Assembly: GCA_964404175.1 (NCBI GenBank)
Contig: CAYOJA010000001.1
Location: 29,506-93,505 of the forward strand
Direction: 5' to 3'
DNA from: an uncultured Thiobacillus sp.
GTDB taxonomy: Bacteria > Pseudomonadota > Gammaproteobacteria > Burkholderiales > Thiobacillaceae
Length of the DNA stretch: 64,000 bases
Shown here: positions 16,840 through 62,994 of the stretch, piece after piece
Layout of the letters: every line of letters begins with the position of its first letter
Position numbering within the stretch: the stretch's first letter is position 1
Position numbers and translations under genes: made by a program
The notes under the pieces: model-generated
Told to the model about the DNA's origin: nothing
Databases searched by the model: none
The model's input: the letters and a program-made list of their open reading frames with translations, nothing else

Positions 16840-16846
16840 ACGCGCA

Positions 16847-17182
16847 ATGATCGAACTCGCTAAGATTACTGCCTTATTCGCACTCACCGCACTGGCAGAG
16901 ATTGTCGGCTGCTACCTGCCGTGGTTGGTGATCAAGCAGGGCCGGCCGGCATGGCTGCTATTGCCGGCAGCGCTGTCGCTGGGCATATTTGCCTGGCTAC
17001 TGACCTTGCATCCCTCGGCCGCCGGCCGCACCTATGCCGCTTACGGCGGTATGTACATCGCCATGGCGCTGGTCTGGCTCTGGCGGGTGGAGGGCATCGC
17101 CCCCACGCGTTGGGATCTGATCGGCGCGGCGGTGGCGCTCGCAGGCATGGTCATCATTGTCCTGCAACCTGATCGCATCTAG
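16847..17182 (+). CDS. ynfA: YnfA (UPF0060) family SMR-like membrane protein
   Basis: [32 protein letters not shown]. Confidence 0.9.
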
Positions 17183-17201
17183 CGACCTTGGGGATTCCTG
17201 C

Positions 17202-19153
<1,952 letters not shown>

Positions 19154-47180: not shown

Positions 47181-47488
47181 CGAATAGAAGTCCCATGTTC
47201 GCGATCGCCAAAATCGCATCACGCAGGCCAAGTGGGAAGCAGACGTTTGATGTGACGGACTAGCTTTCGACCGCTCTGGAGACGTGAGCGGACATAATTG
47301 ACTGGCTAGGCCGAAGTCGGCTTCGGCCGACGACCCGCCTGTCTGAGAGAGCCTCCCACCGTCGCTTCTTCGGGGCCAAAGCGGTCACACGAAGTGGGCC
47401 CACGGAACGCAGTGTGGGGCAACTCCCTAGTTACAGGGTTGGCTGGCCAGGGGTCTTTTGCTGCAAGGTTCCATGTTATAAGAATTTA

Positions 47489-47512
47489 TATGTTATATTT
47501 TTCTATAACATA
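47489..47512. promoter_or_regulatory. Palindromic operator upstream of the WYL gene
   Basis: TATGTTATA-TTTTTC-TATAACATA, 5 bp before ATG 47518; extra half-site ATGTTATA at 47473-47480. Confidence 0.75.
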
Positions 47513-47517
47513 CGGAA

Positions 47518-48384
47518 ATGTACATGGACCAACGGAACGACAGCCCGCAACAACGCCTTACCCTTCTGGAGCTTTTGCTGGTTTGGGAAGGGCGTATTTA
47601 CCGTTCGCGGGTATGCGAGCTGTTCGGTATTGGTTTGCCACGGGCCAGCCAATGGATCAAGGAAATCCGCGACCTGAACCCCACCTGGATGCAATGGGAC
47701 AGCAAGTCCAGGAGCTACTTCGCTACGCCTGATTTCTATAAGCGGTACACCAAGGCTACTCAGGCAAACATTTCCGAATCGCTTTCCCGCTACCTGTCCA
47801 TGGTCGGGCTTCCCTATGCGTCGGCCATGGAAGAAGGCGGTTCAGTGGCCTGGTCGGCGACACCAAGCATCACCGCCCCGGCACCCAAAACATTTGCAAG
47901 CCTCGGGAATGCGATCAGACAGGCAAAGGCCGTCGAAATCGAATACATGTCGATGAGCGAACCGGCTCCTCATCGCCGCACGATCTATCCGCACAGCCTG
48001 GTTCTCGCCGGCCGCAGGTGGCATGTGCGCGCCTACAGCGAAGCGCATCAGGAATTCCGGGATTACGCACTGGGGCGAATCCTCGAGGTGAAGCCTTTAG
48101 CGCGTCCCGCGGATCGCACCCGATTCGATGACTCCGACTGGTACACCAAGGTCAAGGTACGCCTGGTCGCCCACCCTGACCTTTCTCCAGCACAGGCCAG
48201 AGTGATCCAGGCCGAATACTTCAACGGGACAGCGAGCCGCGTCGAAACCTGCCGCGCGGCGCTGGTCCCCTATTTCATTCAGGACATACACGCTGCGACG
48301 GACACGAAGATCCAGCATGCGCCCGAGTACCTAATCGCCGTTGAAAACGCACGGGAGGTATCCAAGTGGCTTTTCAACCGCTAG
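47518..48384 (+). CDS. wHTH-WYL transcriptional regulator, CapW/BrxR-like
   Basis: RLTLLELLLVWEGRIYRS..LFGI wHTH; IEYMSMS, IYPHSLV.AGRRWHVRAY, FRDYALGRI WYL domain. Confidence 0.9.
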   Translation: MYMDQRNDSPQQRLTLLELLLVWEGRIYRSRVCELFGIGLPRASQWIKEIRDLNPTWMQWDSKSRSYFATPDFYKRYTKATQANISESLSRYLSMVGLPYASAMEEGGSVAWSATPSITAPAPKTFASLGNAIRQAKAVEIEYMSMSEPAPHRRTIYPHSLVLAGRRWHVRAYSEAHQEFRDYALGRILEVKPLARPADRTRFDDSDWYTKVKVRLVAHPDLSPAQARVIQAEYFNGTASRVETCRAALVPYFIQDIHAATDTKIQHAPEYLIAVENAREVSKWLFNR

Positions 48385-48502
48385 GCGCTGGCGGCGCTGC
48401 CGCCTCCCTTCTGTTCAAGAATCTGACTTCAGCAAGAGAGGCAATGCAAGAAGTGCTAAGAAAACGCGGCGATTTATTAACCAACGTACCAGCGTGCCAG
48501 TG

Positions 48503-49867
48503 ATGGAGTGGATTCCCCTAATAGCATCTACTCTGAGGCTGGTCGATCTGCACGACAGCGATCGCGCCTACGGTAGCCCACCCAACTTCACGCGTGAATC
48601 AAGGACAGGCAACTCTGACGGGATTTATCTCGATATTGCCTTTAACATTATCCATCGCCTGAAGTTGCTTGATCAAAGTACAAGCCAGGACTACCTCCCA
48701 TTCTCGGTCATCCTGAACGCCGTCAAGGAAGAGCGCCCTGAGACGGCTGATGCTGACGTTCAGTACGTCCTCAATGTACTGCGGCGGCCCTCTGAACTTT
48801 TCTATCTAACAAGCGTTGTCGGCCAACGGACAAAGGTCTGCCACTCGGAGAGACGCGAGACAGCACTTATCGAGAAAACCGATTACGCTGACGAATACAG
48901 GCTGTCGGCATCCGGCCGGCTGCTCCTGTCCTTGGCGAACGTGGCCCGAGATGCCACGTACTTGCGAGGCGATGCCTACAACCTACTGCATGCCATCGAA
49001 TTCAACGATTTCCCGAAGATCCTGACTTTCGCGGATGGCATCGTTGCTCAGCTACGAAACGAGATTCTGGAAGTGCGGTCCGCCCTGGAACGTGTCGGAC
49101 GAACAGAAACGGTAGACAAGTACCTGGACCGGCTTGATCAATACAAGCAGGTCGTCGAAGAAACCATCGGCATCGCCCAGCAAGCTGAATCCAGGCTGGA
49201 GCAAAGCGACGTTCTGGATGCATTCGAGCGCTGGCAGGAGGCGGCCGACATGGACCTCACCTTCGATTACCTGCGCAACCAGATCAACCATGTCCGCCAG
49301 GTCCTGCTGATTTTCAACCGTCTCCTCTCAGAGCTAGTGAGCCTGGCGTTGCAGGGGGAGCGTTCGGCGGTGCCGCCGCCCTCGTTCATCGAAACCGCGG
49401 CGCAATTCATTCGTTCCCCGCTCACGCCAGAGAAAGAGAGTTTCCTGCTCAACCAGTGGGGGGCAATGATTCTGGAAACACCATTTCACTCGGCTCTCGA
49501 TGGGCTCGGCGCAATCAAGCTGCGTACGATGGCTGAAGCCGTCCAGCCCATGGCCTTCCTGGACGAAACAGTCGAGACCGTTTCCGAGTTGGGCAAGGCG
49601 AGGTTCCTGGCGATGCATGGTCCAGAGATTGCCGCTGCGCTCAAGTCCGGACCACTACGCCTGTCCGACGCAATCGAGCGCGGCTGGTTCATGGTGGAAC
49701 AAGAGATGATGCTGGGAGATCTCGTTGGGATATTCGTTGCGCCAAACAGCATCCCTATTGCCGGCAACATCATGATCGGCGTCAGCACAACGCTCGACAG
49801 CAGAGTAGCTGGAGGCGGTGAATTCCTGTTCACCGACATCGAAATCACCGCAGTGGAGGAATCATGA
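48503..49867 (+). CDS. Putative kleisin-like subunit (JetA/MksF-like)
   Basis: YRLSASGRLLL wHTH-like end followed by a long helical region; position and size in the operon; inference only. Confidence 0.55.
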   Translation: MEWIPLIASTLRLVDLHDSDRAYGSPPNFTRESRTGNSDGIYLDIAFNIIHRLKLLDQSTSQDYLPFSVILNAVKEERPETADADVQYVLNVLRRPSELFYLTSVVGQRTKVCHSERRETALIEKTDYADEYRLSASGRLLLSLANVARDATYLRGDAYNLLHAIEFNDFPKILTFADGIVAQLRNEILEVRSALERVGRTETVDKYLDRLDQYKQVVEETIGIAQQAESRLEQSDVLDAFERWQEAADMDLTFDYLRNQINHVRQVLLIFNRLLSELVSLALQGERSAVPPPSFIETAAQFIRSPLTPEKESFLLNQWGAMILETPFHSALDGLGAIKLRTMAEAVQPMAFLDETVETVSELGKARFLAMHGPEIAAALKSGPLRLSDAIERGWFMVEQEMMLGDLVGIFVAPNSIPIAGNIMIGVSTTLDSRVAGGGEFLFTDIEITAVEES

Positions 49868-50646
49868 ACAACTCGGATATGGGCCGCGTCCACGCCTGGC
49901 TGTTACGCCATCGCATCGCCGAAACGAAGTCGAGCCGGCGAGCCATCAGCAAGGAGGAGCGCGAGATCGCCGGCCTGCTGCTCAACGCAGATCCCGCCCT
50001 GCGCATGCAGTTCGAGGAGATGCTGGAGGGTCAGGGATTGCAGTTAGTCTCTCTCACGTCATTCGATGCGAAGGGCATAGCGTCCGGCAGCACCGTGTTT
50101 ATGCTTGCCAGGAATCCCGACGCCGCCCCCCCTTTCTGGGGAACCGACCGTCTCGTGAGCCGCATGCTTCTCGTGAAAGGCATCGACACCGACGCGGAAG
50201 CCAAGACCTGGTTCACCCAGCTATGGTTCGTTTTGCTTGATTTGCTATACACGCGCAGAAACCGTGGCCCCAATGCCATGCAGGACTGGGTGGATACCGC
50301 TTTCTCCAAGGAAATCTTCATTGATTCCGTCAGGGACTATCTGAATGATCGCGTCAGAAAGATCGACCCATCCACGTTAGAAACCGACCGGGTGCACAAG
50401 ACCATGACCGGCCTAAAGGAAGGCGCGATCGCCCAGGCCTGCTACGCCTTTATCGAGTTGATGGTTGACGCCGGGCTGCTAGAAGAAATCGACAAGGACA
50501 TTTTCAGGCAAAGCCTGCTCTTTGCGTACGAGATGAAGTGCAATTTTGATCGACAACTCAAGACGCTGCTGCCCGAACAGGACAAGTTCCAGGCCGCAAG
50601 CGAGATACTGGTCGAGCACACCGACGAAGAAACGGAGGCTAAGTAA
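49864..50646 (+). CDS. Putative KITE/winged-helix subunit (JetB/MksE-like)
   Basis: 260 aa, C-terminal wHTH-like FIELMVDAGLLEE...FRQS; ATGA and TAATG coupling to neighbours; inference only. Confidence 0.55.
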   Translation: MNNSDMGRVHAWLLRHRIAETKSSRRAISKEEREIAGLLLNADPALRMQFEEMLEGQGLQLVSLTSFDAKGIASGSTVFMLARNPDAAPPFWGTDRLVSRMLLVKGIDTDAEAKTWFTQLWFVLLDLLYTRRNRGPNAMQDWVDTAFSKEIFIDSVRDYLNDRVRKIDPSTLETDRVHKTMTGLKEGAIAQACYAFIELMVDAGLLEEIDKDIFRQSLLFAYEMKCNFDRQLKTLLPEQDKFQAASEILVEHTDEETEAK

Positions 50647-53600
50647 TGGCTGCGATATCACGGATCCAGGTCGCCAATTTCCTCACCGAGGGATACATGA
50701 CGGGAAAGGAATGGGCCCCGCTCTATCGTGGCGAGACCTTCCGTCTGTTCGGACAGCCCACCGCCATGCAGATCGACAATGGCGGCGGCAAGACGAGTCT
50801 GACCGAGGCTTGCCTGTATGCACTGACCCGACATCGCCAACTGAAATCCAGGGTAGAGGATCGGGTTGCGCCACCCGACAAAGGCTGGACCCACATACGC
50901 TTTGAGTTCGTCGAAAAATCGCATGAGGAGGATATCCTGCAGACGGAACTGATCACACTGGATCCCGAGGACATTCCTGGCATCACTTATGTCGTAGGCA
51001 TGTGCTGGAGCCGCACCAAGGATCCCAGCTTCTATTCCTACCAAGGGACTCTGGAGGATGCCCCTTGCTATATCCGGGAACAGAACAAGCTTGCCCTCAT
51101 CGCCAACGACGTCTTCCGAAAGTCTGTGGAGGGCATGCCGGGCGCCAGATGGAATCGTTGGCGCAATCAGGCAGAGTGGCTGGAGGAGATCAGGCAGTTC
51201 ACCAACATCGAGGTGCTGCTTCAGAACGTGGAGTTCCAGCTGGAGGGTGCTGGTGACTACTCGGCCATGATCACCAAAGTGAAGCCGGAAGGCGCTGAAA
51301 CCTACGATACCGCTTTCTTCCGGCAATTTGTCGCCCCTGAGCTGCTCAAGCATGCCATGGGCGCGGAAGGTGATCCAGACGAACTCGGATTCGAGGACAC
51401 CATCCTCAAGACGCTGAAGCCGGCGGCCGACGCCTTGTTAGATATCAACAGGCGCCAGCTTGAACTAGAGCAGACGAAGGAGGCCCTCCGGAAATTCGAA
51501 CCGGTGCTGCAGAAGGCAAGTGAGGTCGTAACCGCCAACGCAGAGTACCAGCGCGAGATGAACGCGCTCGCACGAAACGCGGCCATCGTCCACTCCCTGT
51601 CCATGGCGTCGCCGTTGCCGGGCATTCCCGTTATTCCGCCGGGAACCCAGTGGGCAAGTGACAAGCGCGTAATGACCGCCCTCGGGCACATGGTCATCGA
51701 CAAGAAGCATGGAACGGTGATCACAGACGAGGGTCTGGCCGCGTTGATCGGTGTGCCTACCAATGAAATCAACAAGCGCTCTGATACCAGCAACATCGTT
51801 ATGCTCGACTCCGAAACGATTGGACTCAGCGAGCATCTCAAATCGACCAAGCCTAGTGAGCCATCCGGAGGGGAGGGGCAAGAGGAAGCACAACCCTTTG
51901 AAAATAAACAGCATCTCAAAAGATTTGGACGCGGAGGTCGACGCTATTACACCAAGTGCTATCCGCTGAAGCCGGCCCTTTCTATCAGTTCCGCGTGTTC
52001 AAACCTTGCCGGCGCGAAAACTTCAGGACTTACCGACGTCCTTACCCGCGCCTTCGGTATCGCCGCAGACGAGATCGACACCAATCCCTACCGGCATCGG
52101 CTGCGCAAACTTACGTTGAGCCTGGACGAAGCCAGAGGTCGCCAACGCACGGCTCAAGGTGACTGCGACCGTTACCAGGCTTCATACGAAAAATTGCTCA
52201 CCGAGAGCCGGGATGCCAAGGAAAACCAGGCCGCCTATGAAGGTTTCATGGCGAGAAAACATGAATTCCCCGAGGAATACTGGAGCACCCCACTCGCTGC
52301 GCAAGAGTGGGCAGAAGCCGCCGCAAAGAAAGCCGAGGAGGAACGCACTGAGCATGTCACCCTCAGCGCCAAACGCCAAAGCGGCTACGGCTTGTGGCAG
52401 AAACTGGCCGAGAAGCATGGGCAAACTTCGCTGCAGGAGGCGCTGGCAACCCTGAGCGAACTGCATGCTAAAGCGGTGGAGGCCAAATCCACGGCCGAGG
52501 GCGACCTCGGTCAGACCAATGCACAACTTCGTAACAAGCGCACGGAACTGGAAAGGGATGAAAGAAATCTTGGCGTTGCCACAAAGCGCCTGGAGAAGCT
52601 GAGTGGACTTGCGGCCTACCGACCCAAATTCATAGAGATCTTCGGTGACGTTGACCCGCTGGGCCTGAGCCCTCAGGCCGAGATGCAACGCGTACAAGGC
52701 GACAAATCGAAAAATGACGGTCAGCTGCAGGATGCCGATACCAAGAAGCAGGAGCTGCTGGGCCTGCAACCCATGGCGAAGCTGTTTCTTGAGATGTTTG
52801 GCGACGCCGGTCCCGATGGCCTAGACCCAGTGGGGGATCTGCAAAGCCACTTGGAAGCCATCGCTACTGAAGATGGTGTCGTGGCGGATCATCAGCCTTT
52901 GGTCGAGGCTTTGACCTACTTCAGAGAGCAGCTCCCTGGCATTTCGCCAGATGACTGGCTCGCCCACGCGTCGGATCAGCGCCGAATGCTCATCGAGGAG
53001 CGTGGTAGCAATCAGAACAATATCCGCGACCTCACGGGTGAATTGGAGGACCTGGACTCATTCGGGGCTGCCGATGACCGCGTCTACGCCAAAGCCCTGA
53101 AAGTCCTGGCCGACAATGGCATCAGATTTGACCGGCTGCACGACCTTGCTTCGAGAACCGTGTCAGGCGACCGCCTGGAGACCTGTCTGTCCCTCTTCTC
53201 TGCTGCTTTGTCAGCCCCGGCTATCGCATCCGTGGAGGAGGCCGCGAACGCTGCACGCTTGTTGGAGCAGTCCGAGCTGACGGTGCCGATTTTCCTCAAG
53301 CCAGCCCTGGAATCGTTCATTCTGGACGGAGAAATTCATCAGTCCGGTGAAACAGCCCACGCATTGTGGGTTGGCCGTCGCACGCGGCAGGTCGACATCA
53401 TTCTGGACCCCGCCCTCATCGCGGAGGAGAAGAGGCGGATCGAGGAACAGATCGGAAATCTTACCCGGCGCAACGAACAGATCGGCGAACTTGTCGCGGA
53501 TATTTCCGAGGACAGCGCCGCCGTCAAGACGGCGCTGAGTGCGAAAGAAGCGATCCGCCGTGATTCCGAGCGCATTCATGACGAGGCCGCCAGAAAACGA

Positions 53601-55649
53601 GACGCCCTCCAGGCGAAGAAGACCTGGTTTGAAGAGAGGGCGTCGACCAGAGCTCTTGAGGCGATCTCTTCCATGAAGCGTTACATCAAGGCCGGTGGTG
53701 AGATCCGGTATTTGGAACTCGTGGAAACCATCATCCCCGGCCTGGAAAACGAGAAAAAAAGCATCAGCGAACGGCTTGCCGACCTGCGCGCGCAAACGGA
53801 GGAAGACGCACTTCGAGCCCTGCACGCGGCTAAGGATTTTCAACGCGAAGGCGGCGAGGATGCGCTGGCCGCAGCTAAGACAGCGGCCACGGATCTCTCG
53901 TTAAAGGTGAAGTCGCTCAAGTACGCAGTGGATGAACTGCAGGGCAAGGTGGACAACGAACTGAGGGAGGCTTTCAACAAAGCGGCCGAAATTCTTTCCG
54001 AGATCAGCAAGACTTTCCCAATCGACAAGCGCGACCTTGAAGTCTCGATCCTGTTCGAAGAGGAAGGTTTCGTCGAGTTCATGAAGACCACCGATTCGAA
54101 AAGACAGCGGCTCGAAGCTGAACTGGTGACGGCCCAGAAGCGACTGCAAGGCATAGCCTTCGACCGCGCAGCACGGTATATCGACGCTACTCGATCGGGT
54201 GAACGCAGCATCGCCGACCGTATCGCTGACGCCCAGGAAAAAAGAGACGAGGCGGATGAGGCCGCGAAGAACGCGGGCCGCGACATCACCCAAATCGAAG
54301 GCGAGATGGCCACCATGACGCCTTTCATGGAGACGATGCACGAGATGGTTTCCTCGATTCGGGTTCAGTACGCCAAAGTCTCGCTGTTTTCCGAGGACAT
54401 CCTCCGTCTCATGCAGGCTTCACCGTTCTCCGATCCCGAGATCCTGGTTCATGCAGAAACAATTCGTATCGCCTGTACGGGTGAGATTCCGAGCACCGCC
54501 CAGGATATCAAGATCGCCATGCTCAACCTGAGACAGTGCGTCGAGGAACTTGAGATCAACACCGACGAGCTCCGGAGGTTTGGCGAAGATAAGCGGAGGC
54601 GGTTGAGCGAATACATCCAGCGTCGTGATGAATTCTGTGACCGTGCAAGGTCCGGTGAGATCCGCGGCTTGAACCAGTTGGAGATCTCGGCCATCGCAGA
54701 AGCGAAGACTATTGAGCAGCTGCAGCGCATTCAGGAAACCCAGGACGCAATCCAAGCCCAGATCACCGAAAGCGAAGCCAGTCTGGCCAAGATCCGCGAG
54801 GCCATGGAAGCCAACAAGGAGGCTTCCATCGACAATCTGGCCAAATTCGCTCGAGACGCCAAGTTGAGCCTCGACATCCTGGAACGGGTCATGAAAAAGA
54901 CCCCCAATGCCAGGTTCTACATCGAGGCTCCCGTCGCGGACGAAAGCGAGATTGGGCGAATCATCGCCGAACTTCTTGAACAGATCGAGGACAAGGAGCG
55001 CGTCGTGCGCGAGCGGGGCGTCATTCTCCTCAACGATGAGATCGAACGCAAGACGGCAGATTACAAGCGGCTGATCCACGACACCATCTACAAACGGATC
55101 TTCTCCGCTCGGGACAAGGACGAAAACTCCATCGTTCCACGAGTCTATTTCACCCACGCATCGATTCGTGGCAAGGACAAGGTGCCCTTCACTGACCGTG
55201 GCCTTTCAACGGGGCAACGAACAGCGCTGGCGATGATGTGGTTGATCAAGCAGGCGGAATTTGCCATCGCCCGAGCAGCATCGCTCTACGGCACCCGGAA
55301 GGAACGGAAGGCGGCGCTGAAGGGCGCGCAGCGGATCATGTTCTTCGACGGTCTGTTCTCCAACCTGTCCAACGAGGACTACATCAATGACGCATTCCAG
55401 GGATTGCGCGGCGTCGGCGACAACTTTCAGCTTATCGGCCTGATCCACAATCCCTATTACGTGAACAACAAGGACATCTTCCCCGTGCATCTGGTCGGCA
55501 GGAAGAAAGTCGCCAACAAGGGTGATCCTGGGCGGGAGCGCGTGTTTGTCTCTGTTGAGCCCTGGCAGGACAGCAACGGGGTGATTCTCTACACCAGCGC
55601 CTACAAGCACAAAGCCCATATGGCCGGCGAGGAGACCGTGAATGCCTGA
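50646..55649 (+). CDS. SMC/MukB-like ATPase (JetC/MksB-like), 1667 aa
   Basis: ISRIQVANF, Walker A DNGGGKTS, long heptad-rich arms around a central hinge-like region, signature LSTGQ, Walker B-like IMFFDGLFSN, FQLIGLIH. Confidence 0.85.
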   Translation: MAAISRIQVANFLTEGYMTGKEWAPLYRGETFRLFGQPTAMQIDNGGGKTSLTEACLYALTRHRQLKSRVEDRVAPPDKGWTHIRFEFVEKSHEEDILQTELITLDPEDIPGITYVVGMCWSRTKDPSFYSYQGTLEDAPCYIREQNKLALIANDVFRKSVEGMPGARWNRWRNQAEWLEEIRQFTNIEVLLQNVEFQLEGAGDYSAMITKVKPEGAETYDTAFFRQFVAPELLKHAMGAEGDPDELGFEDTILKTLKPAADALLDINRRQLELEQTKEALRKFEPVLQKASEVVTANAEYQREMNALARNAAIVHSLSMASPLPGIPVIPPGTQWASDKRVMTALGHMVIDKKHGTVITDEGLAALIGVPTNEINKRSDTSNIVMLDSETIGLSEHLKSTKPSEPSGGEGQEEAQPFENKQHLKRFGRGGRRYYTKCYPLKPALSISSACSNLAGAKTSGLTDVLTRAFGIAADEIDTNPYRHRLRKLTLSLDEARGRQRTAQGDCDRYQASYEKLLTESRDAKENQAAYEGFMARKHEFPEEYWSTPLAAQEWAEAAAKKAEEERTEHVTLSAKRQSGYGLWQKLAEKHGQTSLQEALATLSELHAKAVEAKSTAEGDLGQTNAQLRNKRTELERDERNLGVATKRLEKLSGLAAYRPKFIEIFGDVDPLGLSPQAEMQRVQGDKSKNDGQLQDADTKKQELLGLQPMAKLFLEMFGDAGPDGLDPVGDLQSHLEAIATEDGVVADHQPLVEALTYFREQLPGISPDDWLAHASDQRRMLIEERGSNQNNIRDLTGELEDLDSFGAADDRVYAKALKVLADNGIRFDRLHDLASRTVSGDRLETCLSLFSAALSAPAIASVEEAANAARLLEQSELTVPIFLKPALESFILDGEIHQSGETAHALWVGRRTRQVDIILDPALIAEEKRRIEEQIGNLTRRNEQIGELVADISEDSAAVKTALSAKEAIRRDSERIHDEAARKRDALQAKKTWFEERASTRALEAISSMKRYIKAGGEIRYLELVETIIPGLENEKKSISERLADLRAQTEEDALRALHAAKDFQREGGEDALAAAKTAATDLSLKVKSLKYAVDELQGKVDNELREAFNKAAEILSEISKTFPIDKRDLEVSILFEEEGFVEFMKTTDSKRQRLEAELVTAQKRLQGIAFDRAARYIDATRSGERSIADRIADAQEKRDEADEAAKNAGRDITQIEGEMATMTPFMETMHEMVSSIRVQYAKVSLFSEDILRLMQASPFSDPEILVHAETIRIACTGEIPSTAQDIKIAMLNLRQCVEELEINTDELRRFGEDKRRRLSEYIQRRDEFCDRARSGEIRGLNQLEISAIAEAKTIEQLQRIQETQDAIQAQITESEASLAKIREAMEANKEASIDNLAKFARDAKLSLDILERVMKKTPNARFYIEAPVADESEIGRIIAELLEQIEDKERVVRERGVILLNDEIERKTADYKRLIHDTIYKRIFSARDKDENSIVPRVYFTHASIRGKDKVPFTDRGLSTGQRTALAMMWLIKQAEFAIARAASLYGTRKERKAALKGAQRIMFFDGLFSNLSNEDYINDAFQGLRGVGDNFQLIGLIHNPYYVNNKDIFPVHLVGRKKVANKGDPGRERVFVSVEPWQDSNGVILYTSAYKHKAHMAGEETVNA

Positions 55650-56826
55650 ATTCGAGGAGCGAATTCAGCAATGGTTTCTTAAACGAACCAAGGGCAGCGT
55701 CACGGGCAAAGTTCTCACGAAAGGAGTCGTCGCGAGGTTGCGCTCCGAGGTGATCAATGACCCCGTCGCGATCAGAAAAGCACTGCTGCTTCTGCGAGAC
55801 GAGGGTCATCTGGTGTTCAGCGCAGACGAGCGTGGCACGCCCGTTAGTAGCTATATTTCGGTAATAAAGCCGACAGCGGATGTCGAGGAACATCTCCAAC
55901 GCTGGTCTCTTGTCCTTGAGGAAAAGGGCATTAGTCAGGCTGATGCCGGTGCGCTATTATCCGTGGCAGATGCCATCAAGGATCTTCCGAAGGACGACAT
56001 GAGGCTTCTGCTGGATGGGCTAGTAAAGCTTCGCCATGATCAACTCCATTTGCTCGGCCAGCCAGCCTATATTGTGAGCGCGAAGTATTTGCTTGGCTCC
56101 TCGAAGATGCTCACCCGTATCCCGAGACGTTCTCTCAAGGCGTACGGCATCGAGCCTCGGCAATTTCCCTCCCACCCGCTCTATGTTGTCGTCGCGGGTT
56201 GCGCCTCCCCCGAAACGGTGGTTCTAGTGGAAAATCCTGCCGCGTTCGAATTGGCGATAAGCACGCAAGCGGTGAATCGATGTGCCTTCATCGCGACGTT
56301 CGGGTTTGGTCTGAGCAAGTCAGAAGAAGACTGCGGGAACCAGCTCACAAAGATGGTCGAGGCACGGTTTTCCGGTGCGATCACACTGACACGTGAGGGG
56401 TCCATGTGCCCGACGGCGAAAGAGCTTCTGAGTCACCCCAAAATCACCTTCTGGGGTGACCTTGATGTCGCGGGGCTCGAGATCTATCTGCGACTCAGGA
56501 AAGCCATCCCGCACCTTCAACTCAGTGCACTCTATAAACCAATGGTTGCTTCAGTCGACAAGCCAGCAGCATCGCATCCATACGTTGCATTGGCAGGTAA
56601 GGAACGACAGCCAACGATGCCAAGGTCAGGTAAGAAAGACGATCCCGTGCTTGCCAGGCTTCTTGATATCTGCGTCTCCCGAGGCGTTGATCAGGAGCAG
56701 GTTTCGCCCTCGGACGTCGAGTCTCTGTCACCGTTTGGACTTGATGCGAGGCACTTTGAAGAACCCGTGTACAACGTGTCTATCCCGACATTGGTAAAGA
56801 CACTCGAAGCGGGCGATTGTGCATGA
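55642..56826 (+). CDS. Toprim nuclease (JetD/MksG, DUF2220/DUF2399-like)
   Basis: VSAKYLLGSSK, VLVEN, FWGDLDVAGLEIY, VDQEQV. Confidence 0.85.
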   Translation: MPEFEERIQQWFLKRTKGSVTGKVLTKGVVARLRSEVINDPVAIRKALLLLRDEGHLVFSADERGTPVSSYISVIKPTADVEEHLQRWSLVLEEKGISQADAGALLSVADAIKDLPKDDMRLLLDGLVKLRHDQLHLLGQPAYIVSAKYLLGSSKMLTRIPRRSLKAYGIEPRQFPSHPLYVVVAGCASPETVVLVENPAAFELAISTQAVNRCAFIATFGFGLSKSEEDCGNQLTKMVEARFSGAITLTREGSMCPTAKELLSHPKITFWGDLDVAGLEIYLRLRKAIPHLQLSALYKPMVASVDKPAASHPYVALAGKERQPTMPRSGKKDDPVLARLLDICVSRGVDQEQVSPSDVESLSPFGLDARHFEEPVYNVSIPTLVKTLEAGDCA

Positions 56827-56840
56827 GTCGTTGAAATCCA

Positions 56841-57407
56841 ATGGCATCAACGTCGGAAACGATTGAAACACTGCGGGGCGCACTTGCCACGTACACCGAT
56901 GAGCGCAAGCTTCTTGAACTCATCGACGAGAGTCTTTCCCTACTTCGTTCCCGCTATCGGCAATTCAAGGCCGAATTTACCGACGAGTCCATTCAATTCC
57001 TGAAGTCGCTTACCGTCGTTCGAGATGCCCTACGTGAATTTATCGAAGCCGTCGAGGACAAAGCCTGGGTTCATTCCCGCGATGATGCTCAGGAACTCGC
57101 CTGTACATTCGGTGAACTCGGTGAGCGGCTTACTCCGCACTTCGTCGCAAAACGCGCAGCAAAGGAAACGCGTGAGCTCCTCGCGACGGCCCAGTCGCTG
57201 CCGTTCGCGGCGGTCAATGTAGGCCAGAATGATTTCCGCCGACGTATTTCCCAGCTTGAAGCAGCTGGCAAGAAATGCCAGAAGTGCGGATCCAAATTGG
57301 CGCTACGAGAAAGCCAGCACGGTTACTTTTGGGGGTGTAGCACTTTTCCCCAGTGTTTTGGGAGGCAGCGGCTTTCCAGGGAAGAATCCCAACTGCTCGA
57401 TCAATGA
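56841..57407 (+). CDS. Helical protein with C-terminal topoisomerase-IA-type C4 zinc ribbon
   Basis: CQKCGSKLALRESQHGYFWGCSTFPQC. Confidence 0.8.
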   Translation: MASTSETIETLRGALATYTDERKLLELIDESLSLLRSRYRQFKAEFTDESIQFLKSLTVVRDALREFIEAVEDKAWVHSRDDAQELACTFGELGERLTPHFVAKRAAKETRELLATAQSLPFAAVNVGQNDFRRRISQLEAAGKKCQKCGSKLALRESQHGYFWGCSTFPQCFGRQRLSREESQLLDQ

Positions 57408-57607
57408 GATTGCGAGTCACGCGACACTGGCAGACGGCTTACACATCTAAAAATTCTTCGTTGCTTGCCCCTTTAGCGATAGCGCATTGGGTTCAAACCA
57501 CGACACCCGACGCGCGAACCGCAATACCACGCCGGGTAGTTAGGGCCATGTCTTCTACGCTTCAAGCGTCTCCTCCATAAAAACGCGTACCACAAAACAA
57601 AATACAC

Positions 57608-57704: not shown

Positions 57705-58145
57705 GTGCCCGTGGCCTCCATAGAAGAACCCAACAATCAGGATCATCCTGTCACGCTCTTCGCACACATTGCGACACGATTCGAACAAATCGAACTGTCC
57801 CACTGGACGGCCGTTGTGTTTGCATGGCTTGCCCGTTATGACGGGATCGATCGATGCTATTTTGAAGACGAAGAGGAATCCCCAGCCCATGAGGTGCTTC
57901 ATTGCATCGCCGAACTGGATCATGGGACTACAGACGACGAAGTAGCCCACGCGCTATCTCATCTTGAATTCCTTACTTGGCGTGTCCGCCATCCCGAAAC
58001 CGCGGAGTGCTGGGATCCGCTCTCACTATCCCTCAGTGATTTCATCGGCGGGGATTTATCGCCCAATTGCTGGAAATGGGAAGGGACCTTCCCGGATTCA
58101 CCCGTAATTGCCTCATGGCTCATCGAACAGCTCCCACACCGCTGA
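57705..58145 (+). CDS. Acidic hypothetical protein coupled to traI (position of GGI yaf)
   Basis: GTG start downstream of promoter B; TGA overlaps the traI ATG (TGATG). Confidence 0.65.
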   Translation: MPVASIEEPNNQDHPVTLFAHIATRFEQIELSHWTAVVFAWLARYDGIDRCYFEDEEESPAHEVLHCIAELDHGTTDDEVAHALSHLEFLTWRVRHPETAECWDPLSLSLSDFIGGDLSPNCWKWEGTFPDSPVIASWLIEQLPHR

Positions 58146-60217
58146 TGTCCGGTGATTGGCTGCTCATTGCCGCTGGAGCCTTGGGAGTAGGCGGCGTATG
58201 GGTCGTTTGGCGTATTGCCCGCCACACCGACCACGCGGCGTCCGACCATTCAACTCCATCCGGTAGCGATTCAAGGGCAGCCAACCATATTAAGGTTCTC
58301 CCTGGCAAAGCCGTCCTGGATCAACTCAACCTTCAAGCCCTGGTCGACGGATGTCGTGACCGCATGGGCTTCGACTACACCCTGTTCCACCAAGACTGCA
58401 TGCCCGTCATCGAGCGGGCTGCGGAATGGACTCAACTGCTACCAGCCTCGGAATCGCATCATCACGCGCAGCCCGGTGGCCTCATGACCCATATGATGGA
58501 GTCGGCAGCACACGCGCTACGCTTCCGGCAGGGCTATCTGCTTCCGGTCGGAGCAGCCCCCGAGGAAATCCCGGCTCGCAAGCACCGCTGGACTTACGCG
58601 GTGTTCCTTGCCGCGCTACTGCATGACATTGGAAGGCCTATGGCCGATATCAACGTCCAAGTTCTCCGATCGAGAAAACCCTGTGGCAAGTGGCAGCCTC
58701 TTGCTGGCTCGATGCTGGATCAGGGGTTGACGCATTACACGTTGAATTTCGAGATTACGCGGGATTACGATCTGCACAAGAAACTGCCCATCGTGCTGTT
58801 CCAGCGGCTCGTTCCTTCCCATGTTCTCGCTTGGCTTGCCGATGACGTACAGCTCATGGGTGATTTGACGAGCTACCTTTCGGGGGACGATCAAGACAAG
58901 GGTGTGTTGCGAGAGATCGTCGCACGCGCCGACTCCGAGTCGGTCAAGAACAACCTGATGCAGGGACCGCGCACTCGCTTTGCCTCCGCCCGGTCGGTGC
59001 CATTGATCGAACGCCTGATGCAAGCCTTGCGCCTGATGCTGGAAGAAGGGCGACTGAGCTTGAATAGGGCGGGGTCCCATGGTTGGGTTTACGACGGAAA
59101 AATCTGGTTCGTGTCCAAGCGGCTGGCCGACGAGGTACGCCAGTTCCTGACCGATCGCGAAAGCGGGGAGGGCATACCTGGCAAGGATAAGAACGATCGC
59201 CTTTTCGATACCTGGCAAGAGTACGGTGCCTTGATCCCAACCAGTGAGAACCGTGCTGTGTGGCAGGTCATGGTCAGTCTCGATGAAGGGTGGGAACAAA
59301 AGCTGACCGTGCTGTGCTTCTCGCTCGACAAACTGTTCCAGTCCCCGGTTCTTTACCCGGAAATCATGAGAGGCAAGATCATTGCCGGAAAACAGGATGC
59401 CTCATACATCCAACCGCTCGATTCGGAATCCGACCTAACTATTGGTTCCATGAGTGATTCTGGCGTTGAGCCAGCCACCAACCCATTAGAGGATCCGGCC
59501 AACCAGCTGTCACTCGTCATACCGCAGCCAGATCCTACCCCCTCGCCGAACCCCGAAGAACAGCCGAAGCGAGCCAGCACGGCTCTCCCTCCCATTCGCC
59601 CGCTGGCACAGCCCAGAGCGGCCGCTCTATCTGAACCTGGGGGCGCGGCTGAGGACGCAGGCTTTCTCGATGAAGATGACGCCGCGATCAAACATTCACC
59701 AAAACCCAAGCCCCCTACTGCAGCAGCATTGAAGCCGGTTGCACCTGCAGGGCAGACAGCGGCCAGGCCCAAGTCTGGCTCGAAAAAGAAGGAACCCTCT
59801 GGTGCAGCCATGCGGTTCATGCGCTGGGTTCAGGAAGGCCTCTCGGAAGGCAGCATGCCGTACAACCGCGCGGACGCCATGATTCACTTCGTTGACGAAG
59901 GAATGATGCTGGTTTCCCCAGTGATCTTTCGCAAGTTCGCCGAACTGTTCGGAGAGGAGGGCGATGGCACACCATCGGATCGAGCGGGGAGCAAGCTGGG
60001 GACCGGCATCCAGCGCCAGGTTACCAATGCTGGCTGGAATCTGGTTACCGGAGAGAAGAAGAGCAACATCCAGCGTTACATGGTGATCGGCGCCGATGGC
60101 GAGGGCAAGAAACTGATCTCTGGCGTGGTCATACTGGATCCTGTTCGATTCGTGAATCCACTTCCGCCGAATAATCCCTGCATTGTCAGGTTCGACAAAC
60201 CCATCGAACACGTCTGA
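58145..60217 (+). CDS. traI: MOBH HD-domain relaxase TraI
   Basis: PASESHHHAQPGGL..H, LLHDIG, N-terminal hydrophobic helix, Pro-rich linker, C-terminal HFVDEG..LVSP.IF. Confidence 0.92.
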   Translation: MSGDWLLIAAGALGVGGVWVVWRIARHTDHAASDHSTPSGSDSRAANHIKVLPGKAVLDQLNLQALVDGCRDRMGFDYTLFHQDCMPVIERAAEWTQLLPASESHHHAQPGGLMTHMMESAAHALRFRQGYLLPVGAAPEEIPARKHRWTYAVFLAALLHDIGRPMADINVQVLRSRKPCGKWQPLAGSMLDQGLTHYTLNFEITRDYDLHKKLPIVLFQRLVPSHVLAWLADDVQLMGDLTSYLSGDDQDKGVLREIVARADSESVKNNLMQGPRTRFASARSVPLIERLMQALRLMLEEGRLSLNRAGSHGWVYDGKIWFVSKRLADEVRQFLTDRESGEGIPGKDKNDRLFDTWQEYGALIPTSENRAVWQVMVSLDEGWEQKLTVLCFSLDKLFQSPVLYPEIMRGKIIAGKQDASYIQPLDSESDLTIGSMSDSGVEPATNPLEDPANQLSLVIPQPDPTPSPNPEEQPKRASTALPPIRPLAQPRAAALSEPGGAAEDAGFLDEDDAAIKHSPKPKPPTAAALKPVAPAGQTAARPKSGSKKKEPSGAAMRFMRWVQEGLSEGSMPYNRADAMIHFVDEGMMLVSPVIFRKFAELFGEEGDGTPSDRAGSKLGTGIQRQVTNAGWNLVTGEKKSNIQRYMVIGADGEGKKLISGVVILDPVRFVNPLPPNNPCIVRFDKPIEHV

Positions 60218-60218
60218 C

Positions 60219-62279: not shown

Positions 62280-62994
62280 GAATCCCGGTCTCTACGACAG
62301 CAATGTGGCAGTCGCCTTTCTGTGGCCATTGAAATGGCTTTTTGGGACGCTCTCGCTATATGTCATGCTTGGCCTGATCGCCCTCACCGCGGCTTTCCTG
62401 TTTGCCAAATATCAATGGCTGGATCCTGTGCAAGCTGCCGACGCTTTGCTCCAGTCGGAAACCGTTCGCGTCAAAGAGCTTGTACGGCCAGGAAGCCACA
62501 CTGCAGGCCTTTCCACGCTTACTGAGAAGACCCAACAGTGGACTTACTGGCTTTTTTTCAAGGCGACATCACTCCATGAAGCCACCTATGCCTATTTCTC
62601 CGCGTATCCGGTCAACGAGGTTGACCGGATGTACCTCAGCCAGTTCGTTGCGCGCAATGCACGGGAAATCTACCTGGCGATGAACGTGATTCAGGTCTAC
62701 GGAATCAGGATTGGCTTCGTACTGGCTGCGAGCCCTTTGTTTTTCCTGTTGTATGTCTTGGCTGGCGTAGACGGTCTGACCGAGCGTTATATCCGCCGCG
62801 CGTGCGCAGGACGCGAATCGGCGGATCTGCACAAAATTGGGCGCCTAGCGAAGCTGATGTTCTTCGCATCCGGGGTCACGTTATATCTCTGCCTGCCGGT
62901 TGCACTGAGCCCGTTTTGGATCATTGCACCCTTAGCGCTTGTTTTTGCGGTGTCCACACGGGTTCAGTGGCAGTTTTACAAAAAATATTTTTAA
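62269..62994 (+). CDS. DUF4400-like conjugation membrane protein
   Basis: DGLTERYIRRACAGRESA; TM helices; follows traD; GTG start. Confidence 0.75.
   Translation: MASRNPGLYDSNVAVAFLWPLKWLFGTLSLYVMLGLIALTAAFLFAKYQWLDPVQAADALLQSETVRVKELVRPGSHTAGLSTLTEKTQQWTYWLFFKATSLHEATYAYFSAYPVNEVDRMYLSQFVARNAREIYLAMNVIQVYGIRIGFVLAASPLFFLLYVLAGVDGLTERYIRRACAGRESADLHKIGRLAKLMFFASGVTLYLCLPVALSPFWIIAPLALVFAVSTRVQWQFYKKYF

What the first reader, a model, noticed from the sequence alone, without database searches (positions are those of the whole stretch)
47518..57407. WYL-controlled, divergent Wadjet/Mks-like SMC-nuclease operon with a fifth gene, carried on a conjugative element
Seen: WYL regulator, then four translationally coupled genes (454, 260, 1667, 394 aa) and a zinc-ribbon gene 14 bp later. 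SMC and Toprim motifs are clear; the first two genes have no motif I recognise and are assigned by position and wHTH-like ends. Known: Wadjet JetABCD extrudes DNA loops and cleaves small circular plasmids; the SMC N-terminus (ISRIQVAN..NGGGKT) resembles type III JetC as I recall it. Inference: a distinct subtype (very long SMC, inserted DNA-binding-like domain, altered Walker B, extra gene, inducible control) that a large mobile element uses against competing plasmids or phages while avoiding cutting its own circle. Best candidate for an undescribed system in this window.
Basis: partly seen in the sequence, partly recalled or inferred. Interest (0 to 1): 0.85.

Follow-up and report, generated by a model that had tools for sequence, protein, structure and literature searches.

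The report
Unannotated Wadjet-like SMC–nuclease defence operon
A conjugative element carries a conserved four-gene operon that has the parts of the anti-plasmid system Wadjet, but three of the four proteins escape current annotation models and the motor protein lacks the residue that normally splits ATP.

Summary
A BrxR-type WYL regulator (47518-48384) precedes four overlapping genes of 454, 260, 1667 and 394 aa, and a zinc-ribbon gene follows 14 bp later. A-B-C-D is conserved in order and size in every locus long enough to show it: 18 genome loci, two remote metagenome loci and a Burkholderia conjugative plasmid. D is a clear JetD homologue with its Toprim residues intact (PADLOC 9e-18; hhalign 98.7 %). 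A and B have no sequence match to anything annotated. Their AlphaFold models match JetA/MukF kleisins and JetB/MukE KITE proteins first in the PDB. C is an SMC-like ABC ATPase of 1500-1900 aa. It has a conserved insert and a central hinge-like domain. Two 52-aa arm segments are gained or lost together, as expected of an antiparallel coiled coil. The C superfamily has 188 clusters and no Pfam or PADLOC coverage. In nearly all members checked the Walker B reads hhhhD-G-x-F-S, so the catalytic Glu that canonical JetC needs is missing. The WYL regulator is common but not universal, and such regulators are already known beside Wadjet. The fifth gene is restricted to one clade and also occurs next to unrelated defence genes, so it is not core. 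Verdict: an undescribed fourth Wadjet-like type whose ATPase chemistry questions loop extrusion. Its function has not been tested.

The parts
47473..47512 (+). Candidate BrxR operator. It is an AT-rich stretch with ATGTTATA twice in direct orientation (47473, 47490) and the inverted repeat TATGTTATA-N6-TATAACATA (47489-47512), ending 6 bp before the WYL start codon.
   Evidence: the repeat finder. The same repeat is conserved upstream of the WYL gene in T. denitrificans DSM 12475 (L014) and partly in L009; other clades have their own AT-rich inverted repeats. Arm length and spacing resemble published BrxR operators (PMC9122601). Binding was not tested.
47518..48384 (+). BrxR/CapW-family wHTH-WYL-WCX transcriptional regulator, a probable repressor. 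It carries the RWHVR ssDNA-contact motif (GRRWHVRAY).
   Evidence: Pfam WYL 3e-16 and PADLOC WYL 4e-18. Orthologues in L001, L003 and L034 carry PF26109 WHD_BrxR + PF13280 + PF26107 BrxR_CTD. The motif can be read in the translation; its role comes from PMC11662680.
48503..49867 (+). Gene A, 454 aa: kleisin-like subunit with a MukF/JetA-type fold (N-terminal winged helix, helical bundle, disordered linker, C-terminal winged helix).
   Evidence: AF2 model, pLDDT 76. The top five Foldseek PDB hits are all kleisins: Wadjet-II JetA 9qe0_E (E 1.4e-5, prob 1.0), 9qe1_E, MukF 7nz2, JetA 8q72_E and MukF 3euh. There is no sequence-level match in Pfam, PADLOC, NCBIfam, a PDB profile search or hhalign.
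49864..50646 (+). Gene B, 260 aa: KITE-like subunit with tandem winged helices (MukE/JetB-type fold).
   Evidence: AF2 model, pLDDT 85, pTM 0.79. The top six Foldseek hits are JetB 8as8_C (E 4e-3, prob 1.0), MukE 3rpu chains, JetB 8dk1_E/F and MukE 7nyw_F. There is no sequence-level match.
50646..55649 (+). Gene C, 1667 aa: SMC-like ABC ATPase. Proposed layout: N-head (aa 1-260), coil, conserved insert (aa 320-480), long arm, hinge-like domain (aa ~800-920), long arm, C-head (aa ~1490-1667).
   Evidence: Motifs and conservation. PADLOC JetC3 hit to aa 1-69 only, E 5e-4. hhalign to canonical JetC covers the P-loop only. No Pfam hit and no PDB sequence hit. No 3D model was made.
50775..50798 (+). 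C Walker A, DNGGGKTS (K49).
   Evidence: N45, G46, G48, K49 and S51 are invariant in alignment A1; N45, G46, G48 and K49 are also invariant across the superfamily sample (A9).
51603..52085 (+). C insert, aa 320-480. It is not coiled coil and contains the basic patch KRFGRGGRRYY. It sits about 60 residues above the N-head. Function unknown.
   Evidence: Low coiled-coil score with many Pro/Gly. It is present in all 30 superfamily representatives aligned, except for the linker at aa 400-417.
52560..52715 (+). C N-arm segment, aa 639-690 (holds one FGDxxPxxLxP motif). It is the partner of aa 1029-1080.
   Evidence: Among the 30 aligned sequences it is present together with aa 1029-1080 in 16 (the window's protein included), absent together with it in 14, and never alone.
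53043..53405 (+). C hinge-like central domain, aa ~800-920. It is the most conserved part of C outside the heads.
   Evidence: Conservation profile. The midpoint of the paired indels falls at residue ~860.
53730..53885 (+). C C-arm segment, aa 1029-1080 (holds a GGE motif). It is the partner of aa 639-690.
55203..55217 (+). C ABC signature motif, LSTGQ (aa 1520-1524).
   Evidence: S1521, G1523 and Q1524 are invariant. The superfamily consensus is SxG[QE].
55332..55370 (+). C Walker B and D-loop region, RIMFFDGLFSNLS (aa 1563-1575). Gly replaces the catalytic Glu, and Ser replaces the D-loop Asp.
   Evidence: D1568 and G1569 are invariant. Gly follows the Asp in 90 of the 96 superfamily representatives where a motif search located a Walker B (107 full-length sequences scanned), and in pMSMB43. 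Canonical JetC here reads LLVNDESFSKMD.
55642..56826 (+). Gene D, 394 aa: JetD-type Toprim nuclease.
   Evidence: PADLOC JetD1 9.4e-18 over aa 80-358. Pfam JetD_C 4.6e-7. hhalign to canonical JetD: 98.7 %, E 3e-16, 271 columns. RefSeq names the orthologues 'Wadjet anti-phage system protein JetD domain-containing protein'.
56230..56232 (+). D Toprim glutamate, E197 (in VENP).
   Evidence: Invariant in 17 sequences and kept in the remote D proteins of L033, L034 and L041. Equivalent to JetD E248 (10.1101/2022.10.04.510915).
56458..56466 (+). D Toprim DxD, D273-L-D275 (in WGDLD).
   Evidence: Invariant and kept in the remote members.
56841..57407 (+). Gene E, 188 aa: helical N-terminal part plus a topoisomerase-I-type C4 zinc ribbon. 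It is a neighbour, not a core component.
   Evidence: Pfam Zn_ribbon_Top1 2.9e-9. Present only in the Thiobacillus/Hydrogenophilales clade. Homologues occur without A-D next to AbiGi, HEPN-AbiU2 and an SF1-helicase-PLD gene.

Best explanation
Genes A-D encode a defence complex built like Wadjet. C is an SMC-like ATPase, probably a dimer. A is a MukF/JetA-type kleisin that would bridge the C heads and probably pairs two such units. B is a MukE/JetB-type KITE protein that would sit on the kleisin. D is a JetD-type Toprim nuclease that the complex would license to cut DNA it has recognised as foreign, most likely plasmids or other incoming circular DNA. A BrxR-type WYL repressor probably binds the palindrome just upstream of its own gene. 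By analogy with CapW, it would keep expression low until ssDNA or DNA damage releases it. What is shown: the gene set and its strict synteny; D's homology and intact catalytic residues; the folds of A and B; C's split ABC motifs and folded-back arms; and the location in defence islands and mobile elements. What is inferred: assembly of the complex, the target, and the mode of recognition. Every family member checked has Gly in place of the Walker B catalytic Glu. I therefore expect ATP hydrolysis to be slow or absent, so that C acts more as an ATP-gated DNA clamp or sensor than as a fast loop extruder. This last step is the least certain.
For: Gene order, overlaps and sizes. A-B-C-D synteny: 18 genome loci, P. 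stutzeri and Gallionella loci, remote subfamilies with C of 1515 and 1739 aa, and a Burkholderia conjugative plasmid. D: PADLOC 9e-18, hhalign 98.7 %, invariant E197 and D273xD275. A and B: Foldseek ranks JetA/MukF and JetB/MukE first among 350,542 PDB chains. C: Walker A, signature motif and H-loop are conserved. Two 52-aa arm segments equidistant from residue ~860 are gained or lost together in 30 of 30 sequences. hhalign matches the JetC P-loop at 70 %, E 4e-5. Defence context: DISARM next door; SIR2-HerA and Tn7 TnsE; HEPN/RES and Prok-E2/JAB/ThiF; a BrxR regulator in most loci. Regulator: RWHVR motif and a conserved palindrome (PMC11662680, PMC9122601). Divergent Walker B with slow hydrolysis has a precedent in the SMC-like sensor LmuB of Lamassu (PMC10586767, PMC12663957).
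Against: No experiment bears on function. A, B and C show no significant sequence homology to canonical Jet proteins: hhalign gives A-JetA 6-20 %, B-JetB under 1 %, and C-JetC the P-loop only, while a negative control (B against JetA) gives 7.8 %. TM-scores for A are low (0.13-0.21), as expected for an extended multidomain protein but still weak. No structure of C was obtained, so the head fold, the hinge and the insert are inferred from sequence. Canonical Wadjet needs the Walker B Glu (JetC E1022Q is dead; 10.1101/2022.10.04.510915), so the canonical mechanism may not carry over. Metatranscriptome contigs cover the operon, but DNA carry-over cannot be excluded.
Confidence: 0.7

Rival explanations
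1. It is an ordinary Wadjet that has only drifted in sequence. It extrudes DNA loops by ATP hydrolysis and cuts small circular DNA exactly as type I JetABCD does, with another residue taking over the role of the Walker B glutamate.
For: The four-part architecture and gene order are the same. D is a true JetD homologue. A and B have kleisin and KITE folds. Walker A Lys, a Q-loop-like Gln, the signature motif and the H-loop His are all under strong conservation, which argues that nucleotide chemistry still matters. A near-invariant Asp (D204, in GxGD.SA) lies close to the Q-loop-like Gln in the sequence.
Against: Gly follows the Walker B Asp in nearly all superfamily members checked, and the D-loop Asp is also lost. 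In type I JetC the E-to-Q change abolishes ATPase activity, DNA cleavage and plasmid restriction (10.1101/2022.10.04.510915). C is 35-50 % longer than JetC and carries an extra conserved domain. The type I-III HMMs miss A and B entirely, even at E <= 1, in 40 and 37 homologues.
Confidence: 0.25
2. It is a Lamassu-like abortive-infection sensor. The SMC-like protein detects a phage or plasmid DNA structure such as DNA ends, then releases or activates the nuclease to degrade DNA indiscriminately, killing or arresting the cell.
For: Non-canonical Walker B motifs are typical of LmuB, not of JetC (PMC10586767, PMC12663957). The system lies in defence islands next to abortive-type systems. Tight BrxR repression would suit a toxic effector.
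Against: No LmuA, LmuB or LmuC model matches. The partners are a MukF-type kleisin and a KITE protein, which Lamassu lacks. The effector is a JetD-type Toprim, not a Cap4, Mrr or lipase effector. No zinc-hook CxxC motif was noted in the centre of C, which instead holds a conserved globular domain; this was not searched for systematically.
Confidence: 0.12
3. It is a condensin-like maintenance or partition system (MksBEF-like) that the conjugative element uses to organise or segregate its own DNA, and not a defence system.
For: It is carried on large conjugative elements in the window and on pMSMB43. MksBEF complexes without a defence role are known (10.1101/2025.03.10.642339, introduction).
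Against: A nuclease gene with intact catalytic residues is always present. Many loci are chromosomal and sit among defence genes or Tn7 cargo, not in replication or partition modules. The distribution is rare and patchy. A BrxR-type regulator is typical of defence islands (PMC9122601). Copies are decaying: truncated by Tn3 on pPUV-6 and truncated in Pseudomonas sp. FEN.
Confidence: 0.05

Closest known systems
Wadjet / JetABCD (MksBEFG, EptABCD), types I-III
   Same: Four-gene operon in the order kleisin, KITE, SMC, Toprim nuclease, with overlapping genes. D is homologous to JetD over about 270 residues and keeps the E and DxD residues. A and B fold like JetA/MukF and JetB/MukE. B is a single KITE of 260 aa, as in type I (242 aa), not the tandem KITE of type II (388 aa; 10.1101/2025.03.10.642339). 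It is often accompanied by a BrxR/CapW regulator and is found in defence islands and on plasmids.
   Different: A, B and C are not detected by the PADLOC type I-III models, Pfam or NCBIfam, nor by profile-profile comparison with a canonical clade. C has 1500-1900 aa against about 1100-1230 for JetC, and it has a conserved 160-aa insert near the head. Its Walker B reads D-G-x-F-S-x-L-S/T in place of D-E-[AS]-F-S-K-M-D. The C family has a sharp boundary: 180 of its 188 clusters score below 1e-10, and no protein of canonical JetC length appears among the 150 listed hits.
MukBEF
   Same: The fold-level matches of A to MukF and of B to MukE rank just behind the Jet proteins. The SMC subunit is very long (MukB has about 1480 aa, from my own knowledge).
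   Different: MukBEF has no nuclease and is a housekeeping chromosome organiser. A profile of C finds no MukB chain in the PDB. MukB has a canonical Walker B Glu (from my own knowledge; not tested here).
Lamassu (LmuABC / DdmABC)
   Same: It is a defence system built on an SMC-like ATPase whose Walker B naturally lacks the canonical Glu (hhhhDD or hhhhD[Q/S/T/E]) and which is thought to hydrolyse ATP slowly and act as a DNA sensor (PMC10586767, PMC12663957).
   Different: LmuB is short (about 650 aa), related to Rad50/SbcC, and often has a zinc hook. Its partners LmuA and LmuC are unrelated to kleisin/KITE and to JetD. No Lamassu model matches here.
BrxR / CapW WYL repressors
   Same: WYL domain with the RWHVR motif. 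Orthologues carry WHD_BrxR and BrxR_CTD. A palindromic AT-rich site lies just upstream. The gene is placed either co-directionally or divergently at the head of a defence operon.
   Different: Nothing notable. This is an ordinary member, and its association with Wadjet has already been reported (PMC11662680, PMC9122601).

Membership tests
Wadjet (JetABCD) | Operon of four genes in the order kleisin, KITE, SMC, Toprim nuclease. | tested here: met
   Order, sizes and overlaps. Conserved in every locus long enough to show it.
Wadjet (JetABCD) | JetD: Toprim nuclease homologous to JetD/MksG, with the catalytic Glu and DxD. | tested here: met
   PADLOC JetD1 9.4e-18. Pfam JetD_C above its gathering score. 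hhalign 98.7 %, E 3e-16. E197 and D273xD275 are invariant.
Wadjet (JetABCD) | JetA: MukF-type kleisin, judged by fold. | tested here: met
   The top five Foldseek hits are JetA or MukF chains; the best has E 1.4e-5 and prob 1.0. TM-scores are low because the protein is extended.
Wadjet (JetABCD) | JetA and JetB recognisable by the family's sequence models (PADLOC JetA/JetB types I-III; Pfam). | tested here: not met
   No hit for the window proteins. None of 40 A or 37 B homologues hits a Jet model at E <= 1. hhalign to canonical profiles gives 6-20 % and under 1 %, no better than the control.
Wadjet (JetABCD) | JetB: KITE protein with tandem winged helices, judged by fold. | tested here: met
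   The top six Foldseek hits are JetB or MukE chains, prob 0.84-1.0. The model has pLDDT 85.
Wadjet (JetABCD) | JetC: SMC architecture (split ABC head, antiparallel coiled-coil arm, central hinge). | tested here: inconclusive
   Walker A, signature, Walker B Asp and H-loop lie at the two termini. Paired 52-aa indels are symmetric about residue ~860. Conserved central domain. No 3D model, no significant match to any solved SMC, and only a P-loop match to JetC.
Wadjet (JetABCD) | JetC Walker B catalytic glutamate, required for ATP hydrolysis, DNA cleavage and restriction. | tested here: not met
   D1568-G1569 is invariant. Gly follows the Asp in 90 of the 96 superfamily representatives where the motif search located a Walker B, and in pMSMB43. 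Canonical JetC reads NDESFSKMD. The requirement is shown in 10.1101/2022.10.04.510915.
Wadjet (JetABCD) | Restricts small circular DNA and cleaves it in an ATP-dependent way. | not testable with these tools
   Needs transformation or conjugation assays and biochemistry.
BrxR/CapW WYL repressors | wHTH-WYL-WCX architecture with the RWHVR motif. | tested here: met
   WYL domain at 3e-16. 'RRWHVRA' is in the translation. Orthologues carry PF26109 + PF13280 + PF26107. The window protein itself reached threshold only for the WYL domain.
BrxR/CapW WYL repressors | Palindromic operator upstream of its own gene. | tested here: inconclusive
   A 9-bp inverted repeat with a 6-bp spacer ends 6 bp before the start codon and is conserved in L014. 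Binding was not tested.
Lamassu | LmuB (short Rad50-like SMC) with an LmuA effector and usually LmuC. | tested here: not met
   No Lamassu model in PADLOC matches any of the six proteins. The partners have kleisin/KITE folds and the effector is JetD-like.
MukBEF/MksBEF condensins (no nuclease) | Three-gene SMC-kleisin-KITE set without a nuclease, with a housekeeping role. | tested here: not met
   A JetD-type gene is present in all 18 genome loci, the two remote metagenome loci and the pMSMB43 plasmid locus. The distribution is rare, patchy and linked to defence islands.

The most novel reading that the evidence does not exclude
This is a fourth, deep-branching class of Wadjet-like systems in which the SMC subunit has permanently lost the catalytic Walker B glutamate. 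Recognition of foreign DNA and licensing of the JetD-type nuclease would then work through ATP binding and head engagement, with or without very slow hydrolysis, and not through processive loop extrusion. That would make it a natural 'EQ-like' SMC complex that still restricts DNA.
Probability: 0.3. Interest if true: 0.85.

Novelty: new variant of a known kind. Interest (0 to 1): 0.66.

Why it matters
Wadjet is the main example of an SMC motor used for immunity. The current model says that ATP-driven loop extrusion measures the size and topology of DNA before JetD cuts it. This family keeps the kleisin, the KITE protein and the nuclease but lacks the catalytic glutamate in every member checked. 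That gives a natural test of how much of the model depends on hydrolysis. Either a different residue does the chemistry, or recognition works without a fast motor. The family is also invisible to PADLOC, Pfam and NCBIfam for three of its four proteins, so defence-system censuses miss it. It lies on conjugative plasmids or ICEs and on Tn7-like elements that also carry metal resistance, so it may influence which plasmids can coexist in those hosts. Cultured carriers exist and make experiments possible: Thiobacillus denitrificans DSM 12475, Pseudomonas stutzeri, Undibacterium sp. Ji49W and Burkholderia humptydooensis MSMB43 (plasmid pMSMB43).

Tried and rejected
1. Single-sequence and profile searches of A, B, C and D against PDB sequences. 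These gave only coiled-coil noise for C, nothing for A or B, JetD at E = 1.4 for D, and marginal Smc-head hits (E 0.26-1.5) at Walker A.

2. Profile-profile comparison with a canonical Wadjet clade that I assembled from Variovorax, Cupriavidus and Ralstonia plasmids. Only D is significant. An appealing shared motif between A and JetA (RGDAYNLL against RGDAYDLV) scores no better than a negative control (B against JetA, 7.8 %), so I do not use it.

3. The idea that this is the PbeABCD or Dnd-linked ABC system. Rejected: those systems have CxC zinc-hook ATPases with DndE and a helicase-HKD protein (PMC10853773).

4. The idea that gene E is a fifth subunit. Rejected on its distribution.

5. The idea that WYL control defines the subtype. 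Rejected: it is known for canonical Wadjet and is absent from some family loci.

6. Literature searches for 'type IV Wadjet', 'Wadjet-like', 'JetD-like', 'MksG-like' and BrxR with Wadjet. None describes this family. Krishnan et al. 2020 on ABC ATPases (recalled from memory) could not be read.

7. megablast of the 9.9-kb region against plasmids found no match.

8. The promoter and terminator consensus scans gave counts at or below the shuffled background and were not used.

9. RNA evidence. Metatranscriptome contigs cover the operon, but contig depth and possible DNA carry-over make this weak.

Full report
**1. What is there**

On the + strand, the ORF listing shows a 288-aa ORF at 47518-48384. 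A 118-bp gap follows. Then come four overlapping ORFs: A (48503-49867, 454 aa from the ATG from which all homologues align), B (49864-50646, 260 aa), C (50646-55649, 1667 aa) and D (55642-56826, 394 aa). The overlaps are 4, 1 and 8 nt. ORF E (56841-57407, 188 aa) starts 14 nt after D.

Family scans give the following:
- First ORF: WYL, Pfam 3e-16.
- D: JetD, PADLOC JetD1 9.4e-18 over aa 80-358, and Pfam JetD_C.
- E: topoisomerase-I-type zinc ribbon, 2.9e-9.
- C: one marginal hit, PADLOC JetC3 at E 5e-4, on residues 1-69 only.
- A and B: nothing in Pfam, PADLOC or NCBIfam.

**2. Context**

Positions 20-64 kb of the window are a conjugative element. It carries:
- a tyrosine recombinase (20389-21360);
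- an F-type mating-pair apparatus on the minus strand (TraG, TraH, TraF, TraN, TrbC, TraU, TraC, DsbC, TrbI, TraK; 22-40 kb);
- a small cargo block (LysR, pirin, isochorismatase, flavodoxin-like, TMEM175; 42.7-47.2 kb);
- the operon studied here;
- a TraI_2 (MOBH-type) relaxase and a TraD coupling protein (58-62 kb).

Positions 1-19 kb are richer in G+C (about 64 % against about 57 %). They carry metal-resistance genes: two P-type ATPases, a three-gene RND efflux system, and MerA.

The exact 10-kb operon occurs at 98-100 % of sampled words in at least 20 metagenome runs from at least 9 studies (sludge, sediment, soil, bioanode).

**3. The gene set is a conserved unit**

C has 132 close clusters, all about 1650 aa, all named 'hypothetical' and all without Pfam domains. 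A has 102 and B has 69, and both sets are equally closed.

A scan of one genome per species found 18 loci. They come from Hydrogenophilales/Thiobacillus, Nitrotoga, Gallionella, Rhodocyclaceae, Undibacterium, Burkholderiaceae, Pseudomonas and Methylococcaceae, plus one Zixibacteria MAG. Every locus long enough to show them has A, B, C and D in the same order and with the same sizes.

A profile of the C N-head, searched against 1.84 billion representative proteins, found 188 clusters. Of these, 180 score below 1e-10, so the family edge is sharp. Full-length members have about 1490-1920 aa, and no protein of canonical JetC length (about 1100-1230 aa) appears among the 150 hits listed. Five remote members have no Pfam or PADLOC hit.

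The loci of two of these remote members show the same layout:
- L033 shows B-C-D; the contig ends where A would lie. It sits next to HEPN/RES, Prok-E2/JAB/ThiF and Tn7 TnsA genes.
- L034 has a divergent BrxR-WYL gene plus A-B-C-D. It sits next to SIR2-HerA and TnsE.

In P. stutzeri the operon abuts a DISARM system. On the 305-kb conjugative plasmid pMSMB43 of Burkholderia humptydooensis, RefSeq calls A, B and C 'hypothetical' and D a 'JetD domain-containing protein'.

**4. What each protein is**

*D.* It is a true JetD homologue. hhalign against a canonical JetD profile gives 98.7 %, E 3e-16, over 271 columns. The Toprim residues E197 and D273xD275 are invariant, including in remote members.

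*B.* The AF2 model has pLDDT 85. Its first six PDB matches are JetB (8as8_C, 8dk1_E/F) and MukE (3rpu, 7nyw).

*A.* The AF2 model has pLDDT 76. Its layout is winged helix, helical bundle, disordered linker, winged helix. Its first five matches are Wadjet-II JetA (9qe0_E, E 1.4e-5; 9qe1_E), MukF (7nz2, 3euh) and E. coli JetA (8q72_E).

At the sequence level neither A nor B can be linked to Jet proteins. None of 40 A or 37 B homologues hits a PADLOC Jet model at E <= 1. hhalign against canonical profiles stays at the level of a negative control.

The sequence evidence is as follows:
- Walker A (DNGGGKTS) lies at the N-terminus. A signature motif (LSTGQ), a Walker-B-like strand and an H-loop His lie at the C-terminus.
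- The stretch between them scores as coiled coil over most of its length, with several breaks.
- The central region, aa ~800-920, is the best-conserved part outside the heads.
- Two 52-aa segments (aa 639-690 and aa 1029-1080), equidistant from residue ~860, are both present in 16 of the 30 aligned superfamily sequences (the window's protein included) and both absent in the other 14. None has only one. This is what an arm that folds back on itself at a hinge near residue 860 predicts.
- A conserved 160-aa segment that is not coiled coil (aa 320-480, with a basic patch) sits about 60 residues above the N-head. Its function is unknown.

**5. The unusual feature**

The Walker B region reads RIMFFDGLFSNLS, and D1568-G1569 is invariant. 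I scanned 107 full-length representatives of the superfamily, which differ by at least 50 % from each other. A motif search located a Walker B in 96 of them. In 90 of those 96, Gly follows the Asp, and the pattern is D-G-[LIM]-F-S-x-L-[ST]. pMSMB43 has D-G-A-F-S-H-L-S.

A canonical JetC that I retrieved reads LLVNDESFSKMD. The family therefore keeps the D-x-x-F-S-x-[LM] frame but has lost both the catalytic Glu and the D-loop Asp.

In type I Wadjet the E1022Q change abolishes ATP hydrolysis, DNA cleavage and plasmid restriction (10.1101/2022.10.04.510915). The only precedent I found for a defence SMC-like ATPase with a naturally divergent Walker B is LmuB of Lamassu, which is thought to hydrolyse slowly and to act as a sensor (PMC10586767, PMC12663957).

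**6. Regulator and fifth gene**

The WYL protein has the RWHVR motif that contacts ssDNA in CapW (PMC11662680). Its orthologues carry the BrxR wHTH and C-terminal domains.

An AT-rich inverted repeat, TATGTTATA-N6-TATAACATA, ends 6 bp before the start codon. It is conserved in T. denitrificans DSM 12475, and other clades have their own palindromes.

The regulator gene is co-directional with the operon in some loci and divergent in others. In at least two loci (L006, L007) other genes take its place. BrxR/CapW regulators are already reported with canonical Wadjet, so this feature is ordinary.

Gene E occurs only in the Thiobacillus/Hydrogenophilales clade. In L006 an ISL3 element separates it from D. 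Its homologues lie next to AbiGi, HEPN-AbiU2 and an SF1-helicase-PLD gene on contigs without A-D. It is a neighbour that travels with defence genes, not a subunit.

**7. Mechanism**

The best-supported reading has confidence about 0.7. A, B and C form a Wadjet-like SMC-kleisin-KITE complex that recognises foreign DNA and licenses the JetD-type nuclease D, and BrxR represses expression.

Whether recognition uses processive loop extrusion is open. Because of the Walker B, I favour slow or no hydrolysis, with the complex acting as an ATP-gated clamp or sensor. The strong conservation of the other nucleotide-binding motifs keeps the ordinary-motor rival alive, with a substitute catalytic residue (0.25).

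A Lamassu-like abortive mode (0.12) and a condensin role for the element itself (0.05) are less likely, for the reasons given under the rival explanations.

**8. Novelty**

In architecture this is a Wadjet. Its membership fails on two tested features: recognition of A, B and C by the family's sequence models, and the catalytic Walker B Glu. It is also longer and carries an extra conserved domain.

I found no description of it in the searchable literature. I could not check the newest DefenseFinder models or the 2020 ABC-ATPase survey.

I classify it as a new variant of a known kind: a candidate fourth Wadjet-like type. Its function is untested.

Noticed in passing
window 47316-47320 and 48415-48417: Contigs from several runs labelled as RNA (three metatranscriptomes and one RNA-Seq library) match the operon but diverge from the window to the left of ~47316-47320, inside the hairpin GGCCGAAG/CTTCGGCC, and they continue into at least three different flanks. 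Other contigs carry a WYL gene about 95 % identical, at much higher depth, and diverge just after its stop (~48417). This suggests that the cassette has a discrete left end, and that the BrxR gene with its promoter is shuffled between different downstream cargos.
   Followed up: partly
window 1-19000: A block richer in G+C (about 64 % against about 57 %) carries metal-resistance genes: two P-type ATPases (937-3267, 13172-15196), a CzcCBA/Cus-like RND efflux system (4112-9853), a DDE transposase (10671-11624) and MerA (17202-18827).
   Followed up: partly
window 20389-47180 and 58067-62994: The element has an F-type T4SS and a MOBH-type TraI_2 relaxase with TraD, followed by a DUF4400 gene. This layout is reminiscent of SXT/R391-like ICEs and related plasmids (a comparison from my own knowledge). 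The defence operon sits between the transfer operon with its cargo block and traI. ORF 29158-30243 in the tra operon has no Pfam match.
   Followed up: partly
L025:2739-3296, L027:931-1494, L028:5154-5606: Homologues of the zinc-ribbon gene E (57-62 % identity) lie immediately after or beside unrelated defence genes: AbiGi, HEPN-AbiU2, and an 1193-aa SF1 helicase-PLD protein. It may be a small accessory protein that goes with many defence islands.
   Followed up: partly
L006:16060-17472 and L041:12084-13478: An ISL3-family transposase sits directly downstream of gene D in two unrelated family loci: a T. denitrificans MAG and Burkholderia plasmid pMSMB43.
   Followed up: no
L035:10283-13050; L018:10001-14302; L019:9179-10532: Several copies are decaying or disrupted. 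On P. aeruginosa megaplasmid pPUV-6 only the C-terminal ~280 aa of C and gene D remain, next to a Tn3 transposase. C is truncated to 1433 aa in Pseudomonas sp. FEN. L019 has about 1.35 kb inserted between C and D.
   Followed up: partly
window 52638-52676 and 52794-52835 (C aa 665-677, 717-730); 53694-53702 and 53850-53858 (C aa 1017-1019, 1069-1071): The N-arm of C contains the motif E[IM]FGDxxPxxLxP twice, and the C-arm contains 'GGE' twice at roughly mirrored positions. One motif pair lies in the 52-aa segments that are missing together in the ~1520-aa class. These are probably conserved breaks in the coiled coil (elbow or joint).
   Followed up: partly
window 47450-57420: The 10-kb operon is present at 98-100 % of sampled words in at least 20 public metagenome runs from at least 9 studies (sludge, activated sludge, sediment, soil, bioanode), so this exact allele is widely disseminated.
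   Followed up: partly
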